From positions 1-21,617 of the forward strand of contig JBIOIY010000051.1 in assembly GCA_044450345.1 (NCBI GenBank): a DNA stretch of 21,617 nucleotides. The letters are read 5' to 3'. This document shows, in pieces, positions 1 through 3,924 of the stretch (its first letter is position 1; each line of letters begins with the position of its first letter). Position numbers and translations under genes: made by a program. The notes under the pieces are model-generated. The model was not told the origin of the DNA. It did no database searches and saw only the letters and a list, made by a program, of their open reading frames with translations. This DNA is from Thermodesulfovibrionales bacterium (lineage in GTDB: Bacteria > Nitrospirota > Thermodesulfovibrionia > Thermodesulfovibrionales > UBA6898).

Positions 1-1624
1 ACCCTATCTGCACGCCCAATAAATTCCCATGATCTGCTGCGAGGCCGATGCCGAAGGGCGCTGCCTCGGCCAAGACTGGCGTGATTATCGGTACTGGAAT
101 AGGAGGCGTGATAGCAAAGGATTGTGCACCTGACGGAACAGGTATCGCTCCTGTATTAATAATAGCTTGTCCGATATTGTTCCCATTTTGTTCGGTAAAC
201 CAGAGGTTGCCGTCAGGACCAATTGCAATATTTCCAGGAGCGCTTGAATGAGTGGGGATAGTAAACTCCGTGATGACGCCCGCTGTTGTGCTCTGCGCGA
301 TTCTGTTTCCATTTGTTCCATGTACCGTAAACCAGAGGTTGCCGTCAGGGCCGAGCCTGATAGCCCTTGGGATACTGTTGGGAAGGGGGATAAGATACTC
401 GGTGATGACGCCCGCTGTCGTCATCTTCGCAATGCTATTCCCATTTTCTTCGCAAAACCAGAGGTTGCCGTCAGGGCCGTCTGCCATGCCATTAGGCTGG
501 CTGTTGGAGGTGGGGATTGGAAACTCGTTAAGAACCACTCCTGCCGGAGAGATCTGTCCGATCTTGTTTCCATTGTTTTCGGTAAACCAGATGTTGCCGT
601 CAGGACCGGTCCTGAGCGCCGTAGGTTGACTATTGGTAGTGGGGATCGGGAATTCTGTGATGACGCCGCCTGTAGTGATACGTCCGATATTATTCCCCAT
701 TTTTTCGGTGAACCAGAGGTTGCCGTCAGGGCCAATGGTGATCCCCGTGGGCTGGCTGTTGGCAGTAGGGACTGGAAACTCGTTGAGAATCACTCCTGCC
801 GGCGAGATCTGTCCAATGTTATTCCCCCCTTGTTCGGTAAACCAGAGGTTACCGTCAGGACCGTTTGCGACGACAACAGGCTGGCTGTTGGCAGTAGGGA
901 TCGGAAACTCCGTGATGACTCCCCCCGTGGTGATCCGGCCGATTTTGTTGCCACTGTTTTCCGTAAACCAGAGGTTGCCGTCAAGGCCAAGAGAAATCCT
1001 AAAAGGTGTGCTGCCAACAGTTGGAACAGGGAATTCGTTGAATGTGATGGCGCTGTCCACGTACATATCATCATAATTCACCTGATGGGAACCTGCGCTA
1101 TCAGCACTGTTTTGCCCTGTCAGCCAAACGGTTGTCGCGCCAGGTGGTGCGGTTAGGGAAGCCGAGTCAAGGGCTATCCAAGATCCGGTTGATGTTGTAA
1201 GTAGTTGAGAGGCAGAAATAAATCCGCTGGTACAATCTGCACCTGAAAACCACGAGATTGTAACGAGGCCGCCTCCTGTGATCAACTGGCCAGAGGGAAT
1301 AAATACCTTACCTCCAAATGTGTAGGTTTGCCCTGGGATAATGACTCCGGGTAGACACTGGTAAATTGCTAGCAATGTAGAGGTGCCGTTTGCATTGTAG
1401 ATACTTTTGGCGGATCCCGAACCAGGAGTACCAGTCGCATCGAGTGAGGCATCATATGTTGTTGAAGGATCAGCAAGCCATCCACTGAGATTGCCTTTGA
1501 AGCTGGGATTCGTGGCTAAGTTACCGGCGAATGCGGCTCCAGCAAGCCCTATCAGGATTGATAACGCAACGAGCATCAAGGTGGATAATACCAAAAAGCC
1601 TGATAATTTCTTCGTTATTCCCAT
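1..1624 (-). CDS. Secreted protein: signal peptide + CBM-like domain + 7-repeat Vgb (virginiamycin B lyase)-like beta-propeller + Pro-rich C-terminal region; 3' end outside the window
   Basis: Manual translation from ATG at 1624 (GGAGG SD at 1631-1635) is open to the window edge (541 codons). It reads MGITKKLSGFLVLSTLMLVALSILIGLAGAAFA|GNLATNPSFKGNLSGW...QVNYDDMYVD, then seven EFPxPT..xQP..GPDGNLWFTE..GNxIGxI repeats. Not in the ORF track because there is no stop in the window. Confidence 0.92.
   Translation of the reverse strand, partial: MGITKKLSGFLVLSTLMLVALSILIGLAGAAFAGNLATNPSFKGNLSGWLADPSTTYDASLDATGTPGSGSAKSIYNANGTSTLLAIYQCLPGVIIPGQTYTFGGKVFIPSGQLITGGGLVTISWFSGADCTSGFISASQLLTTSTGSWIALDSASLTAPPGATTVWLTGQNSADSAGSHQVNYDDMYVDSAITFNEFPVPTVGSTPFRISLGLDGNLWFTENSGNKIGRITTGGVITEFPIPTANSQPVVVANGPDGNLWFTEQGGNNIGQISPAGVILNEFPVPTANSQPTGITIGPDGNLWFTEKMGNNIGRITTGGVITEFPIPTTNSQPTALRTGPDGNIWFTENNGNKIGQISPAGVVLNEFPIPTSNSQPNGMADGPDGNLWFCEENGNSIAKMTTAGVITEYLIPLPNSIPRAIRLGPDGNLWFTVHGTNGNRIAQSTTAGVITEFTIPTHSSAPGNIAIGPDGNLWFTEQNGNNIGQAIINTGAIPVPSGAQSFAITPPIPVPIITPVLAEAAPFGIGLAADHGNLLGVQIG
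162..1051 (-). repeat. Seven ~126-132 bp coding tandem repeats (propeller blades)
   Basis: AAACCAGAGGTTGCCGTCAGG-like motif recurs near 197, 329, 455, 584, 711, 839 and 965 on the + strand; it encodes GPDGNLWF on the - strand. Confidence 0.9.
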
Positions 1625-1716
1625 ATCTTTCCTCCTATCCAGTCGGTTTACGGCTTCGAATTAAACATAATTAAGTCTGTCCTGAGTTTATTTATAATCA
1701 GTGGTGTACATTTCAA

Positions 1717-1744
1717 ATTATATAATACCTTGCAAAATTTGCAA
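1717..1744 (-). promoter_or_regulatory. Putative sigma70 promoter of the propeller gene, overlapped by an imperfect palindrome
   Basis: Minus strand reads TTGCAA (1744-1739), 16 bp, TATAAT (1722-1717). The dyad TTGCAAAATTTGCAA at 1730-1744 overlaps the -35. Confidence 0.5.
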
Positions 1745-1924
1745 TGGTAATCCGCTGGACCATGGCAAGACTGCGGTTGCGAACTTCAGGAAGGACGCTT
1801 CCCTCTCAACTTCACCGACGAGTCCGCAGTTTCGGACGGGTGAAACTCTATGAAGAGTACGAATGGAATATGAGACCTTTCAAACGGCGTGAGAACGTTT
1901 GTTATAGCCACCTACGTATAGATG

Positions 1925-1933
1925 TGGTATAAA
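1925..1933 (+). promoter_or_regulatory. Extended -10 (TGnTATAAA) in the IS left end; half of the circle-junction promoter
   Basis: TG at 1925-1926 and TATAAA at 1928-1933, lying 17 bp from the right-end TTGACA after circularisation at CAC. Confidence 0.75.
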
Positions 1934-1939
1934 GAGATT

Positions 1940-2090
1940 AGGGAAAGGCAGGAAGATATATTCAGCCTGGGTCATTGAACCCTGAGTAGTGTTTTGTCTC
2001 CTGCCTCCCGTAGCCATAATTAGTTGATTGGGTCACTGAACCCTCGTTACGCGGGTGGCTTGGCTGGGAGGCACATCCTGTCTTTCAAAA
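1940..2090 (+). ncRNA. Candidate IS110 bridge RNA (putative target-binding loop then donor-binding loop)
   Basis: Outer stem 1943-1953/2076-2086. Arm 1 stem 1954-1958/1995-1999; arm 2 stem 2002-2016/2061-2073. Each arm is capped by TGGGTCAYTGAACCCT (1968-1983, 2029-2044). Loop 2 strands match the element's ends. Boundaries are estimated by hand. Confidence 0.8.
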
Positions 2091-2110
2091 ACTAATGCAG
2101 GAGGTGTAGT

Positions 2111-3298
2111 ATGACTCGGCTATTTGTCGGCATTGATGTCTCTAAGGATTCATCGTCTTCACGGGGGCTTGGTGACAATGCTGAGGACCGGTTCGCCACA
2201 ATCTTTGACATGAACTCAGAGGGATTTGCAAAGCTGTATAAAGCCATTACAGAGCATTGTACAGACATATCAGAGGTCATGGTGGCTATGGAGTCCACGG
2301 CATGCTACCACATCAATCTATTTTCTTTCTTGACCGCGAAGGGTATTCACACGGTTATCATCAACCCGCTGCTGATCGCCAACTTCTCGAAGCTTTCACT
2401 CAGGAAGACAAAGACGGACAAGAAGGATGCCCTTACCATTGCCCAATTCCTCATGTCTCACAAGGACACGATCACACAGCTGTCAGTACCCCCGGATCTT
2501 CAGGATCTCAGGGATATAGCCAGAGAGAGGGAATCGGTGATCCAGATGATCTCTACGCAGACCGTTGAGATGAAAAGGCTGCTGCAGACCACGTTTCCCG
2601 AGTTGGAAAAGCTCTGCAATATTACAACCAAGGTCATGATCGACTTCATAGAGGAATTTCCCTCTGCCCGCTTGGTCAGGGCCGCCAAGCCAAAGATAAT
2701 AGAAAAAGCCTTAAATAGGAAAGGTGTGCGTAGCAGATTGACCTTCACTGTAGATGATATCATCAGGGCTGCCAGGAACTCTGTTGCAACGGTAAGTCCG
2801 GGGAAGGAACTGATTCTGAAGGGCAAGGTGTCTACGTTTCAGCACCTGGGAAAAAGGCGTGACGAGCTCACAAAAGCTCTTACCGAATACTGTAAGCATA
2901 CGATGATCGAGGATCTCAAGATCGTCACTTCCATTACGGGAATAAATAAAGGCACGGCGACTACATTTCTTGCAGAGGTGGGAAGCATAGACAAGTACGC
3001 ATCTCATAAGAAGTTGATTGCCTTCGCCGGCATCGATCCAGCTGTTTATCAATCCGGCAAATATGAAGGAACAGGGAGGATATCTAAACGCGGCAACCGT
3101 CACCTTAGAAGAATCATCTGGCTCATGACAAGAAACGTGATACAGCACAATTCACTTTTCAGGGCGTTCTTTTTAAAGAAACGGAGAGAAGGACAAGCAT
3201 ACAAAAAAGCTATGTTTGCCACATCGCACAAACTGATCAGGGTTGTTTTCGCCCTGCTCTCAAAAAAAATTTATTTCGACCAGACTGTGCATAGTTGA
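2111..3298 (+). CDS. IS110-family transposase/recombinase (RuvC-like DEDD domain + Transposase_20 domain), 395 aa
   Basis: GIDVSK (D9), AMEST (E61), KTDKKD (D103, D106); C-terminal FAGIDPAVYQSGK with the conserved Ser and SKRGNRHLRR; SD AGGAGGTG at 2099-2106. Confidence 0.97.
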   Translation: MTRLFVGIDVSKDSSSSRGLGDNAEDRFATIFDMNSEGFAKLYKAITEHCTDISEVMVAMESTACYHINLFSFLTAKGIHTVIINPLLIANFSKLSLRKTKTDKKDALTIAQFLMSHKDTITQLSVPPDLQDLRDIARERESVIQMISTQTVEMKRLLQTTFPELEKLCNITTKVMIDFIEEFPSARLVRAAKPKIIEKALNRKGVRSRLTFTVDDIIRAARNSVATVSPGKELILKGKVSTFQHLGKRRDELTKALTEYCKHTMIEDLKIVTSITGINKGTATTFLAEVGSIDKYASHKKLIAFAGIDPAVYQSGKYEGTGRISKRGNRHLRRIIWLMTRNVIQHNSLFRAFFLKKRREGQAYKKAMFATSHKLIRVVFALLSKKIYFDQTVHS

Positions 3299-3300
3299 CA
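3295..3300 (+). promoter_or_regulatory. Consensus -35 (TTGACA) at the IS right end, overlapping the transposase stop codon
   Basis: TTGACA 3295-3300 includes the TGA stop (3296-3298) and the first two core bases. Confidence 0.75.
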
Positions 3301-3432
3301 CAAGGTCGCACTCCTTCCGATAAATAGCGAGTAATATTTTCGGGTTCAAAGATGCATTCCTCTATCATAACGCCCGTGCCTCACCAGACATAGCGCTCAC
3401 AGAAGATGCCTTAGTTGTCGGTAAGGGGCAAC

Positions 3433-3924
3433 TTAAAGAGCCTTTTTTTTTGCTGGCAGGAAAAGATCTGACGTAAGGGGTTCTGATAGGTCGAAGCGTT
3501 TTTCACATTCCGTAAGCCATGCCAAAAGAGTGGAGATGAGCAGAGGTTTGGGGAAGAAATTGCATCCCAATACCGCCGCACACTTTCTAAGCTCCGAATC
3601 TTCACTTCCCGTCATCAAGGCCTTGTTCTTACTCGTAAGTTTGCAGCCTCCATGATGCTGCATCTCAAGCAATTCCATCCCTGTCATATCGGGCATGTCA
3701 TAATCAGTTATGAGAATATCTGTACAACGGTTATGCTGCGGGCAACTGTCAGCATGCTCCCTATAGAAAGCGCAGGTGATGGGAGTATCAGCTGTCAAAA
3801 CTTCATAGCCCATCCCTTCCAGGATATGTCTAAAGACATCCAGAATCGTATCGTCATCATCACACACTATAGCTCGTGGCTTTCGCATAAGCTGATTGTT
3901 GCATTTACTTTGGTACGGTTTCAT
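3433..3924 (-). CDS. Stand-alone response regulator receiver with Cys-rich insert
   Basis: IVCDDDD acidic pocket, ILITDYDMP phosphoacceptor, MTG and FPKP motifs. The start could be the later Met (MRKPRAIV). Confidence 0.88.
   Translation of the reverse strand: MKPYQSKCNNQLMRKPRAIVCDDDDTILDVFRHILEGMGYEVLTADTPITCAFYREHADSCPQHNRCTDILITDYDMPDMTGMELLEMQHHGGCKLTSKNKALMTGSEDSELRKCAAVLGCNFFPKPLLISTLLAWLTECEKRFDLSEPLTSDLFLPAKKKAL

What the first reader, a model, noticed from the sequence alone, without database searches (positions are those of the whole stretch)
1940..2090. Candidate bridge RNA with two near-identical hairpin-capped loops upstream of an IS110 recombinase
Seen: the 16-mer TGGGTCAYTGAACCCT occurs twice (1968-1983, 2029-2044; 15/16 identical), each time capping an internal loop. 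Arm 1 is closed by AGAUA/UGUCU and arm 2 by UGCCUCCC-AGCCA/UGGCU-GGGAGGCA. An outer helix GAAAGGCAGGA/UCCUGUCUUUC (1943-1953/2076-2086) would give a three-way junction. Known: IS110 elements such as IS621 encode a non-coding RNA with target- and donor-binding loops that guides the DEDD recombinase. Inference: this is the guide RNA of an intact RNA-guided recombinase. Its 395-aa protein, duplicated hairpin and enclosing helix differ from the IS621 prototype as I know it, so it may be an uncharacterised, reprogrammable subtype.
Basis: partly seen in the sequence, partly recalled or inferred. Interest (0 to 1): 0.9.

Follow-up and report, generated by a model that had tools for sequence, protein, structure and literature searches.

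The report
Bridge RNA of an IS110 element
The flagged stretch really is the guide ("bridge") RNA of an intact IS110-type jumping gene, an RNA-guided recombinase system described in 2024, so it is a correct call but an ordinary new member of a known kind.

Summary
The ORF at 2111-3298 is an IS110-family RNA-guided transposase with all five catalytic residues (D9, E61, D103, D106, S315). The element spans 1911-3298 and is flanked by a duplicated CA core. The same RNA lies upstream of 73 of 79 homologous transposase loci, and all six helices covary. Across 68 independent insertions, the 5' strand of loop 1 reads like the left flank and the 3' strand complements the right flank (0 of 2000 shuffles reach the observed match). 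Loop 2 carries the element's own ends. A sigma-70 promoter (TTGACA, 17 nt, TGn-TATAAA) forms only when the ends are joined in a circle. This is the published IS621-type bridge RNA logic. The window's guides specify the 3' end of a dispersed ~100-nt intergenic repeat. The copy sits in a diverged copy of that repeat, so its own flanks match only partly. The enclosing helix is real and makes a three-way junction, but single-sequence folds also predict it in two distant Firmicutes relatives. Verdict: new member of a known kind, with modest interest.

The parts
1811..1910 (+). Copy of a dispersed ~100-nt intergenic repeat. Its 3' end (..TTATAGC-CA) is the left half of the insertion site.
   Evidence: The repeat matches other places in the genome and in 8 related genomes, with 7 of the 8 matches ending at about window 1911.
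1902..1908 (+). Left target (LT) TTATAGC.
   Evidence: It matches the loop 1 5' strand ATTCAGC in 4 of 7 positions. The repeat consensus TTTCAGC matches in 6 of 7.
1909..1910 (+). Core dinucleotide CA, left copy.
   Evidence: The same CA follows the right end at 3299-3300. Relatives L005/L027 and L025 also have CA at both junctions; L007 has CA at its left junction, the only one held.
1911..2110 (+). Left end (LE) of the element. It starts CCTACGTATAG and is 200 nt of non-coding sequence that holds the bridge RNA gene.
   Evidence: Multi-copy sets in other genomes place the left boundary at CCTAC. Similarity to homologues starts at 1908-1909.
1925..1933 (+). Extended -10 box, TGG-TATAAA.
   Evidence: It lies 17 nt from the LE start. 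In 48 of 50 distinct LEs the spacer is 17-18 nt, and 41 of 50 have TG.
1940..2090 (+). Bridge RNA. The ends are predicted and have not been mapped.
   Evidence: The covariance model R1 scores 138.6 bits here. The structure covaries across relatives. G-U cells outnumber A-C cells 149 to 33, which points to RNA read from the + strand.
1943..1953 (+). 5' strand of the enclosing helix. It pairs with 2076-2086.
   Evidence: The MFE fold shows it. In the family 84.4% of cells pair, and 4 pairs change on both sides. It forms in 55 of 61 single-sequence folds.
1954..1958 (+). 5' strand of the stem closing the target-binding loop. It pairs with 1995-1999.
   Evidence: AGAU/GUCU here corresponds to GAAC/GUUC in relatives. 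99.3% of cells pair, and 3 of 4 pairs change on both sides.
1960..1968 (+). Left target guide (LTG): ATTCAGC, then C for core position 1, then a near-invariant U.
   Evidence: In the family this strand has the same sense as the left flank. Positions -2 to -8 match in 56-99% of 68 insertions.
1969..1982 (+). Hairpin 1 (GGGT-CATTGA-ACCC).
   Evidence: 99.6% of cells pair, and U-A changes to C-G in some relatives.
1984..1994 (+). Right target guide GAGTAG, then core complement TG, then handshake positions TTT.
   Evidence: The reverse complement is CA-CTACTC. In the family, right-flank positions +1 to +7 match in 63-98% of 49 insertions. The UG core complement occurs only in the CA-core clade.
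2002..2016 (+). 5' strands of the donor-binding loop stems: TGCCTCCC and AGCCA. They pair with 2066-2073 and 2061-2065.
   Evidence: I3; helices 4 and 5: 95% and 100% of cells paired, with covariation.
2021..2029 (+). Left donor guide TAGTTGA, followed by TT.
   Evidence: It is identical to the element's last 7 nt, 3292-3298 (direct reading). This strand and the right end are near-invariant in the family.
2030..2043 (+). Hairpin 2 (GGGT-CACTGA-ACCC).
   Evidence: 100% of cells pair. U-A changes to C-G in 23 of 66 sequences.
2048..2060 (+). Right donor guide with core complement (GG-TG) and handshake guide (GCT).
   Evidence: This 13-nt arm is 85% complementary to the left junction 1906-1918, AGC-CA-CCTACGTA (I1). 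In the family, handshake position 1 is complementary to the last left-target base in 88% of insertions, against 66 +/- 3% when shuffled.
2076..2086 (+). 3' strand of the enclosing helix.
2100..2104 (+). Shine-Dalgarno sequence GGAGG of the recombinase gene.
   Evidence: Direct reading. GGAGG is conserved in the homologues aligned.
2111..3298 (+). IS110-family bridge recombinase, 395 aa. It has a DEDD RuvC-like domain, a long coiled-coil and a Tnp domain with the catalytic Ser.
   Evidence: PF01548 2.6e-31 and PF02371 5.8e-24. NF033542 scores 208 bits against a cutoff of 140. PDB hits are ISCro4 at 3.5e-18 and IS621 at 2.9e-17. D9, E61, D103, D106 and S315 are present.
3292..3298 (+). Right end TAGTTGA (left donor). 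The stop codon TGA is the last 3 nt of the element. TTGA plus the core forms the -35 box.
   Evidence: Multi-copy sets. The last four bases plus core read TTGACT in 47 and TTGACA in 4 of 51 junctions.
3299..3306 (+). Core CA (right copy) and right target CAAGGT.
   Evidence: Only 2 of 6 right-target positions match the guide-specified CTACTC (corrected for the window's one extra base). The rebuilt empty site resembles uninterrupted repeat copies such as L013 and L003.

Best explanation
Window 1911-3298 is an intact IS110-group insertion sequence. Its left end encodes a ~150-nt bridge RNA (about 1940-2090), and that RNA guides the element's own DEDD/Ser recombinase (2111-3298).

Inferred mechanism, by analogy with IS621:
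- Excision joins the right end (..TAGTTGA) through the core to the left end (CCTAC..).
- The joint creates the promoter TTGACA, 17 nt, TGn-TATAAA, which transcribes the RNA.
- Loop 1 (1959-1994) pairs with the target. [quoted passage not shown] - Loop 2 (2017-2060) pairs in the same way with the joined ends of the element.
- The bases just 3' of each core complement act as handshake guides for strand exchange.

The guides of this copy specify TTCAGC-CA-CTACTC, which is the 3' end of a dispersed intergenic repeat. The copy itself sits in a diverged repeat copy (TTATAGC-CA-CAAGGT), which is an imperfect site.

Shown here: the anatomy, the structure covariation, the guide-to-flank matching, the promoter geometry and the catalytic residues. 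Inferred only: transcription, RNA-protein binding and present-day activity.
For: - Protein. It matches Pfam PF01548 and PF02371 and the NCBIfam equivalog 'IS110 family RNA-guided transposase'. It hits the solved IS621 and ISCro4 chains, and the DEDD and Ser residues align.
- RNA distribution. Model R1 finds the RNA upstream of 73 of 79 homologous loci. By the table, the six misses are truncated copies or lack upstream DNA.
- RNA structure. 93.9% of cells pair, 17 of 33 pairs change on both sides, and 0 of 500 shuffles reach the observed values. Sliding one strand by one base drops pairing to 56-57%. G-U cells outnumber A-C cells 149 to 33.
- Guides. Over 68 unique insertions the left-target match is 5.07 of 7, against 3.24 +/- 0.15 when flanks are shuffled. 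Over 49 insertions the right-target match is 3.98 of 6, against 2.30 +/- 0.17. No shuffle of 2000 reaches either value, and the result holds with one row per distinct guide pair.
- Core. In the CA-core clade (4 distinct elements) the right target guide and right donor guide both carry UG instead of AG.
- Handshake guide. Position 1 is complementary to the last left-target base in 88% of insertions, against 66% shuffled (0 of 2000).
- Donor loop. TAGTTGA at 2021-2027 equals the right end at 3292-3298. The arm 2048-2060 complements the left junction 1906-1918 in 11 of 13 positions.
- Promoter. The geometry is conserved in 48 of 50 distinct left ends.
- Target. The best match in the genome to the predicted 14-mer (13 of 14) lies exactly at the end of an intact repeat copy on contig C39. 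In seven of nine other repeat copies the best 14-mer match sits at the repeat's ..GCCAC end (9 to 13 of 14).
- Other sites. Contigs 95-99% identical to the element occur in 4 runs from 2 studies and run into different flanks at 1897, 1906 and 3303.
Against: - The window's own flanks match its guides poorly: 4 of 7 on the left and 2 of 6 on the right. Most family members match 6-7 of 8 on the left flank and 5-7 of 8 on the right. Either the insertion was off-target or the loop or the flank has drifted since.
- The U at core position 2 of the left target guide does not pair with a CA core.
- No covariation could be shown between the variable part of the donor loop and variable left-end positions. 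The guided donor bases are invariant in the family.
- The single-sequence fold is only marginally better than shuffles (z = -2.05).
- Only one identical copy exists in this 86-contig assembly, and no contig shows an empty site or a circle junction.
- No transcription data exist.
Confidence: 0.9

Rival explanations
1. The RNA is a true bridge RNA by descent, but this copy is a stranded relic. It landed in, or drifted away from, a poor site and no longer moves.
For: Its own flanks match the guides in only 4 of 7 and 2 of 6 positions. There is a single identical copy in the assembly. No contig shows excision or a circle.
Against: The ORF is full length with all five catalytic residues. Both ends, the core duplication and the promoter parts are intact. 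Contigs 95-99% identical sit in other flanks in other samples. Partial-match insertion is reported for IS621 (abstract of bioRxiv 10.64898/2026.08.31.748434).
Confidence: 0.25
2. The structure is only a cis-acting 5' leader that controls translation or stability of the transposase mRNA, with no guide role.
For: It lies directly upstream of the ribosome-binding site. No terminator-like site separates it from the gene. AAGGCAGGA at 1945-1953 recurs as AATGCAGGA at 2094-2102, overlapping the Shine-Dalgarno region.
Against: A leader has no reason to track the flanking host DNA, yet the loop strands do so in 68 insertions. The core complement also switches together with the core. The 2094-2102 repeat is not conserved in the homologues aligned.
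Confidence: 0.03
3. The twin 16-mers and inverted repeats act as DNA, as subterminal recombinase-binding sites or DNA hairpins, not as RNA.
For: The two 16-mers are direct repeats inside the element's end, which is where transposase-binding sites usually lie.
Against: Paired columns keep pairing through G-U, which is allowed only in RNA of the + strand: 149 G-U cells against 33 A-C cells. Compensatory changes preserve the helices rather than the sequence. The promoter geometry points into the region.
Confidence: 0.03

Closest known systems
IS621 (E. coli) bridge recombinase and its 177-nt bridge RNA (Durrant et al. 2024, PMC11208160; Hiraizumi et al. 2024, PMC11208158; passages read)
   Same: The RNA is encoded in the left end, upstream of a DEDD plus Ser recombinase. 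The first loop targets and is variable; the second loop binds the donor and is conserved. In each loop the 5' strand pairs with the bottom strand and the 3' strand with the top strand. A core dinucleotide flanks the element. Handshake positions lie 3' of the core complements. The promoter is rebuilt across the joined ends. The left end is long and the right end short.
   Different: The protein match is only E = 2.9e-17, and the coiled-coil region is longer (395 aa against 326 aa). The 5' stem-loop is absent in this copy, though other family members have one. The two loops are 1-3 nt apart and closed by a 10-11 bp enclosing helix, whereas IS621 is described as having an 11-nt linker with the donor loop ending the RNA. 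The core is CA, not CT. The base at core position 2 of the left target guide is a near-invariant U and does not track the core.
ISCro4 transposase (PDB 9t56)
   Same: It is the best solved-structure match (E = 3.5e-18), with the same two domains.
   Different: It is a distant relative: only residues 5-154 and 255-394 align. I did not read any paper on it.
ISPpu10 and other IS110 elements that insert into repeated intergenic sequences (REP)
   Same: Here the guides specify the end of a dispersed intergenic repeat, and the copy sits in one. ISPpu10 insertions are reported to map to copies of one conserved intergenic sequence (start of the abstract of bioRxiv 10.64898/2026.03.19.712850, seen in the listing). 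Durrant et al. cite REP targeting in their reference list.
   Different: The repeat here is ~100 nt, has no conserved fold and is unrelated by name. I read no more than that abstract start.
IS1111-group elements (seekRNA / right-end-encoded bridge RNA)
   Same: They use the same recombinase family and the same RNA-guided logic.
   Different: Their RNA lies in a long right end and they have long subterminal inverted repeats (PMC11208160). Here the right end has no non-coding sequence at all, because the stop codon is the last 3 nt. An IS1111-like element does occur elsewhere in this genome (C27, C69).

Membership tests
IS110 family, IS110 group (bridge recombinase plus bridge RNA) | A recombinase with an N-terminal DEDD RuvC-like domain and a C-terminal Tnp domain carrying the catalytic Ser | tested here: met
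   PF01548 and PF02371. NF033542 above its cutoff. D9, E61, D103, D106 and S315 align with IS621 D11, E60, D102, D105 and S241.
IS110 family, IS110 group (bridge recombinase plus bridge RNA) | A long non-coding left end upstream of the gene and a short right end | tested here: met
   The left end is 1911-2110 (200 nt). The right end stops with the stop codon at 3296-3298.
IS110 family, IS110 group (bridge recombinase plus bridge RNA) | A left-end RNA with two stem-loops, each bearing a large internal loop capped by a hairpin, conserved across orthologues | tested here: met
   All six helices covary, and 0 of 500 shuffles reach the observed values.
IS110 family, IS110 group (bridge recombinase plus bridge RNA) | The strands of loop 1 covary with the left and right target flanks: the 5' strand has the sense of the left flank and the 3' strand is complementary to the right flank | tested here: met
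   Family level: (0 of 2000 shuffles for either side). For the window's own copy the match is only partial (4 of 7 and 2 of 6).
IS110 family, IS110 group (bridge recombinase plus bridge RNA) | Loop 2 is complementary to the element's joined ends | tested here: met
   2021-2027 equals 3292-3298. 2048-2060 complements 1906-1918. The core complement switches together with the core. No covariation is possible elsewhere because the guided donor bases are invariant.
IS110 family, IS110 group (bridge recombinase plus bridge RNA) | The same core dinucleotide on both sides of the element | tested here: met
   CA at 1909-1910 and 3299-3300. Relatives have CT at both junctions in 45 of the 49 insertions with a readable right flank, and CA in the other 4.
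IS110 family, IS110 group (bridge recombinase plus bridge RNA) | A sigma-70 promoter rebuilt across the joined right and left ends | tested here: met
   This tests geometry only: TTGA plus core, 17-18 nt, TGn-TATAAx in 48 of 50 left ends. No promoter is found in the integrated state by the scan. Transcription was not tested.
IS110 family, IS110 group (bridge recombinase plus bridge RNA) | A short ATA...TAT subterminal inverted repeat around the donor | tested here: inconclusive
   The window has ATA at 3291-3293 and TAT at 1917-1919. Most relatives lack TAT at that place.
IS110 family, IS110 group (bridge recombinase plus bridge RNA) | The RNA is expressed, binds the recombinase, and reprogramming the loops redirects recombination | not testable with these tools
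   No RNA run holds the stretch.
IS1111 group | Bridge RNA in a long right end, with long subterminal inverted repeats | tested here: not met
   There is no non-coding right end, and the RNA lies in the left end.
Any Rfam family | A match to a curated covariance model | tested here: not met
   cmscan of 1600-3600 at E up to 10 gives nothing in 1900-2100.

The most novel reading that the evidence does not exclude
The scaffold is a nested three-way junction and not the tandem layout described for IS621. A 3' tail pairs with the 5' leader and encloses both loops, which are only 1-3 nt apart. The middle strand CCUGCC can pair either with the 5' GGCAGG (lengthening the target-loop stem) or with the 3' GGCA (lengthening the donor-loop stem). 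If this holds in the complex, one RNA molecule might supply both loops to a synaptic complex. In IS621 the two loops are said to come from two RNAs. Alternatively the RNA might switch between target-ready and donor-ready folds, perhaps matched by the ~60-aa longer coiled-coil. Single-sequence folds of two Firmicutes relatives that are 32-34% identical show a similar enclosing helix, so this would characterise a wide IS110 subgroup.
Probability: 0.2. Interest if true: 0.55.

Novelty: new member of a known kind. Interest (0 to 1): 0.3.

Why it matters
The result adds a well-annotated natural bridge-recombinase system from an uncultivated lineage. Its relatives by transposase are in Nitrospirota/Thermodesulfovibrionales and Syntrophales MAGs. 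Ends, core, all four guides, handshake positions and promoter are mapped to the base, and the family alignment holds about 70 members.

It also gives natural examples of three things:
- a CA core with matching UG in both 3' guides;
- an insertion at an imperfect site;
- an enclosing helix.

These could inform the engineering of bridge recombinases. None of them changes the current picture of how the systems work.

Tried and rejected
- Rfam search of 1600-3600 at E up to 10: only three chance-level hits, all outside the RNA.
- RNAalifold on the MAFFT alignment A1 did not return the enclosing helix. The 3' ends were misaligned there. After alignment to the model, part of the helix is returned, and 55 of 61 single-sequence folds form it.
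- Mutual information between the 3' strand of loop 2 and left-end positions 1-20, and between its 5' strand and the right end: no complementary signal.
- I first placed the core at the CT inside CCTAC. I rejected this because the loop 1 match then sat 3 nt out of register, and the window's two junctions share CA, not CT.
- I considered that the repeat at 1811-1910 was the end of the IS110-like element next to a repeat copy on C27. I rejected this because a second copy of that element on C69 shares sequence only from 95 nt before its start codon and has no repeat.
- The repeat shows no conserved fold on either strand.
- The promoter and terminator scan of 1800-2200 in the integrated state found none. 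That tool requires T at the last -10 position, and TATAAA lacks it.
- Sequencing runs: no RNA holder is listed. The contigs laid show no joints, so there is no evidence of an empty site or a circle.
- Earlier findings of this scan: nothing by place, by sequence or by words.
- Literature: 0 papers hold 'bridge RNA', 'three-way junction' and 'IS110' together. Figures and bioRxiv supplements could not be seen, so a drawing of this scaffold may exist in print.
- The regex used for the right-donor-guide core mis-hit six sequences with GGTGGAGG. Those rows are not used in the core argument.

Full report
**Observation.** The sequence is as described. TGGGTCATTGAACCCT (1968-1983) and TGGGTCACTGAACCCT (2029-2044) are 15 of 16 identical. 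Each holds a GGGT/ACCC hairpin that caps an internal loop. The first loop is closed by AGATA/TGTCT (1954-1958 / 1995-1999). The second is closed by TGCCTCCC/GGGAGGCA (2002-2009 / 2066-2073, 100% complementary) and by AGCCA/TGGCT. GAAAGGCAGGA (1943-1953) pairs with TCCTGTCTTTC (2076-2086). The MFE fold gives this three-way junction at -56.5 kcal/mol, but with z = -2.05 only (6 of 200 shuffles fold as well). The single sequence is therefore suggestive and not decisive.

**Gene and element.** ORF 2111-3298 (395 aa) matches DEDD_Tnp_IS110 (2.6e-31) and Transposase_20 (5.8e-24). It also matches NCBIfam NF033542, 'IS110 family RNA-guided transposase', at 208 bits against a cutoff of 140. It hits the solved ISCro4 and IS621 chains (3.5e-18 and 2.9e-17). 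D9, E61, D103, D106 and S315 align with the IS621 catalytic residues D11, E60, D102, D105 and S241. The extra length lies between the two domains, in the coiled-coil region.

Sets of near-identical copies in other genomes fix the family's ends. The element begins CCTAC and ends ..ATAGTTGA, and the same dinucleotide lies outside both ends. In the window the element is 1911-3298, flanked by CA at 1909-1910 and 3299-3300. The stop codon is the last three bases of the element.

**Comparative RNA structure.** A scan of species-representative genomes found 277 relatives of the protein, of which the best 80 were kept. They come mostly from Nitrospirota/Thermodesulfovibrionales and Syntrophales MAGs. 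I built a covariance model from 39 distinct upstream sequences. It finds the RNA in 82 loci of 100 sources searched. That includes 73 of the 79 loci searched. By that call's table, the six misses are truncated copies or lack upstream DNA.

On the 70 distinct aligned sequences:
- 93.9% of cells pair, 17 of 33 pairs change on both sides, and all six helices covary.
- No shuffle of 500 reaches the observed values.
- Sliding the 3' partners by one column drops pairing to 56-57%. That alignment was fitted to the model, so it leans towards the structure. The MAFFT alignment gives the same picture: 92.7% paired and 10 pairs with double changes.
- G-U cells outnumber A-C cells 149 to 33, as expected for an RNA read from the + strand.

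**Guides.** For each element I took the flank outside CCTAC, the flank outside TAGTTGA, and the four loop strands by alignment column.
- Over 68 unique insertions, the 5' strand of loop 1 is identical in sense to the left flank at 5.07 of 7 positions. Shuffling flanks among elements gives 3.24 +/- 0.15.
- Over 49 insertions with a readable right flank, the 3' strand is complementary to the right flank at 3.98 of 6 positions, against 2.30 +/- 0.17.
- No shuffle of 2000 reaches either value. The result holds with one row per distinct guide pair (52 and 35 rows).
- The matching positions are -2 to -8 on the left and +1 to +7 on the right, so both guides include the core.
- A clade of four distinct elements (window, L005/L027, L025, L007) has a CA core and carries UG, not AG, at the core complement of both 3' strands.
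- The base 3' of the core complement in loop 2 is complementary to the last left-target base in 88% of insertions, against 66 +/- 3% shuffled (0 of 2000). This is the handshake position described for IS621 (PMC11208158).
- The 5' strand of loop 2 carries TAGTTGA, the element's last seven bases. In the window, 2048-2060 complements the left junction 1906-1918 in 11 of 13 positions.
- The guided donor bases are invariant in the family, so no further donor covariation could be shown.

**This copy and its target.** The window's loop 1 specifies (A)TTCAGC-C-, then CA-CTACTC. Its real flanks are TTATAGC-CA and CA-CAAGGT. That is 4 of 7 on the left and 2 of 6 on the right, which is low for the family (the right-hand figure is corrected for the window's one extra base).

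The left flank (1811-1910) is a copy of a ~100-nt intergenic repeat. The repeat is found elsewhere in this genome and in 8 related genomes, and in 7 of those 8 loci the match ends at about 1911. Its consensus end, TTTCAGC-CA-C[T/A]A.., fits the guides much better than the window's own flanks do.
- In the window's own genome, the best match to the predicted 14-mer (13 of 14) lies exactly at the end of an intact repeat copy on C39.
- In seven of nine other repeat copies the best 14-mer match sits at the repeat's ..GCCAC end, with 9 to 13 of 14 letters.

So the element is aimed at the repeat's 3' end, and this copy sits in a diverged repeat. Insertion at partly matching sites is reported for IS621 (abstract of bioRxiv 10.64898/2026.08.31.748434). 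Drift since insertion is an equally open explanation.

**Promoter.** TTGA (3295-3298) plus the core gives TTGACA. In a circle it would lie 17 nt from TATAAA (1928-1933), which is preceded by TG at 1925-1926. Across the family, 48 of 50 distinct left ends have a 17-18 nt spacer and 41 have the TG. The joined -35 reads TTGACT or TTGACA in all 51 junctions examined. This is the rebuilt promoter described for IS110 elements (PMC11208160). In the integrated state the scan finds no promoter.

**Signs of mobility.** Contigs 95-99% identical to the element occur in four public runs from two studies. One contig leaves the window's sequence before 1906, another before 1897, and one behind 3303. A further contig carries the repeat up to 1911 and then continues with unlike sequence. 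These are short metagenome contigs and may be chimeric. No joint, empty site or circle was seen, and no RNA run holds the stretch.

**Comparison and novelty.** Every defining feature of the IS110-group bridge system that can be tested in silico is met. The differences from the published IS621 description are:
- a longer coiled-coil;
- no 5' stem-loop in this copy, although many family members have one between the -10 box and the RNA body;
- a CA core;
- a left-target-guide base at core position 2 that is a near-invariant U and does not track the core;
- an enclosing helix that, with loops only 1-3 nt apart, makes a three-way junction. IS621 is described as a 5' stem-loop, target loop 34-98, an 11-nt linker, and donor loop 110-177 ending the RNA.

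The enclosing helix is paired in 84.4% of cells, with four doubly changed pairs, mostly in its outer part. It forms in 55 of 61 single-sequence folds. Its inner part, GGCAGGA, could instead pair with the invariant middle CCUGCC. Covariation cannot decide between these two pairings.

Two plasmid-borne relatives that are only 32-34% identical (Monoglobus, Enterococcus faecalis) also fold with an enclosing helix. That evidence is weak, because it rests on single sequences. A 2026 preprint reports 86 covariance models for 32,190 bridge RNAs, 'many' of which deviate from IS621. The scaffold is therefore probably already catalogued, although I found no text that describes it and I could not see figures or supplements.

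**Verdict.** The observation and the interpretation are both right. It is a new member of a known kind, of modest interest.

Noticed in passing
window 1811-1910; also G000 C39:13580-13685, C27:18917-19000, C15, C9, C61, C3, C26; loci L008, L011, L012, L013, L021, L024: This is a dispersed intergenic repeat of about 100 nt (consensus ..CGGACGAAACTCTATGAAGATTACGAA..GAGACCTTTCAAAAGA..GTTTGTTTCAGCCAC). It is conserved across several genera of the family. It has no Rfam match, no conserved fold on either strand and no constant neighbouring gene. Its function is unknown. It is the programmed target of this IS.
   Followed up: partly
G000 C27:17801-18817 (locus L003, - strand) and C69:576-1592: A second, different IS110-family element is present (339-aa transposase; the two copies are 91% identical). 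Its left end is short (~95 nt) and shared sequence continues downstream, so it looks like the IS1111 group. On C27 it abuts the 5' side of another copy of the same intergenic repeat.
   Followed up: partly
G000 C42:25818-27191 (locus L002, - strand): A paralogue of the window's element (65% protein identity) has its own bridge RNA (158.9 bits). Its loop 1 strands and hairpin 2 stem differ (GGGC/GCCC). It is cut by the contig end at its left boundary.
   Followed up: partly
G000 C39:29651-29696: A partial match to the bridge RNA model (model positions 17-62, 35 bits) lies at a contig end. It is probably a third family member broken by the assembly.
   Followed up: no
L108 (NZ_OY725734.1, 1563 bp, circular): This 'plasmid' record from Monoglobus pectinilyticus consists of one IS110-family transposase gene plus ~390 bp. 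It looks like an excised IS110 circle assembled as a replicon. TGTGCTATAAT precedes a weakly R1-like RNA (15.5 bits).
   Followed up: partly
window 2-1624 (- strand): A long ORF (541 aa, open at the window edge) is built of about ten repeats of a ~40-aa unit with the motif GPDGNLWFTE.. and has a signal-like N-terminus. It was not searched against any library.
   Followed up: no
family alignment A2; L070-L079 clade: In one clade the 5' strand of loop 1 ends in CA and the loop 1 handshake triplet is UCA, fully complementary to the right end TGA, while the flanking core stays CT. So the base at core position 2 of the left guide varies independently of the core.
   Followed up: no
window 1922 and 2037, 2045, 2089 (runs X1, X2, X4, X5): The 95-99% identical copies in other samples carry an extra T after 1922 in three of the four runs, which makes the promoter spacer 18 nt. 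They also carry substitutions in the hairpin 2 loop (2037) and at the first base of the loop 2 3' strand (2045).
   Followed up: no
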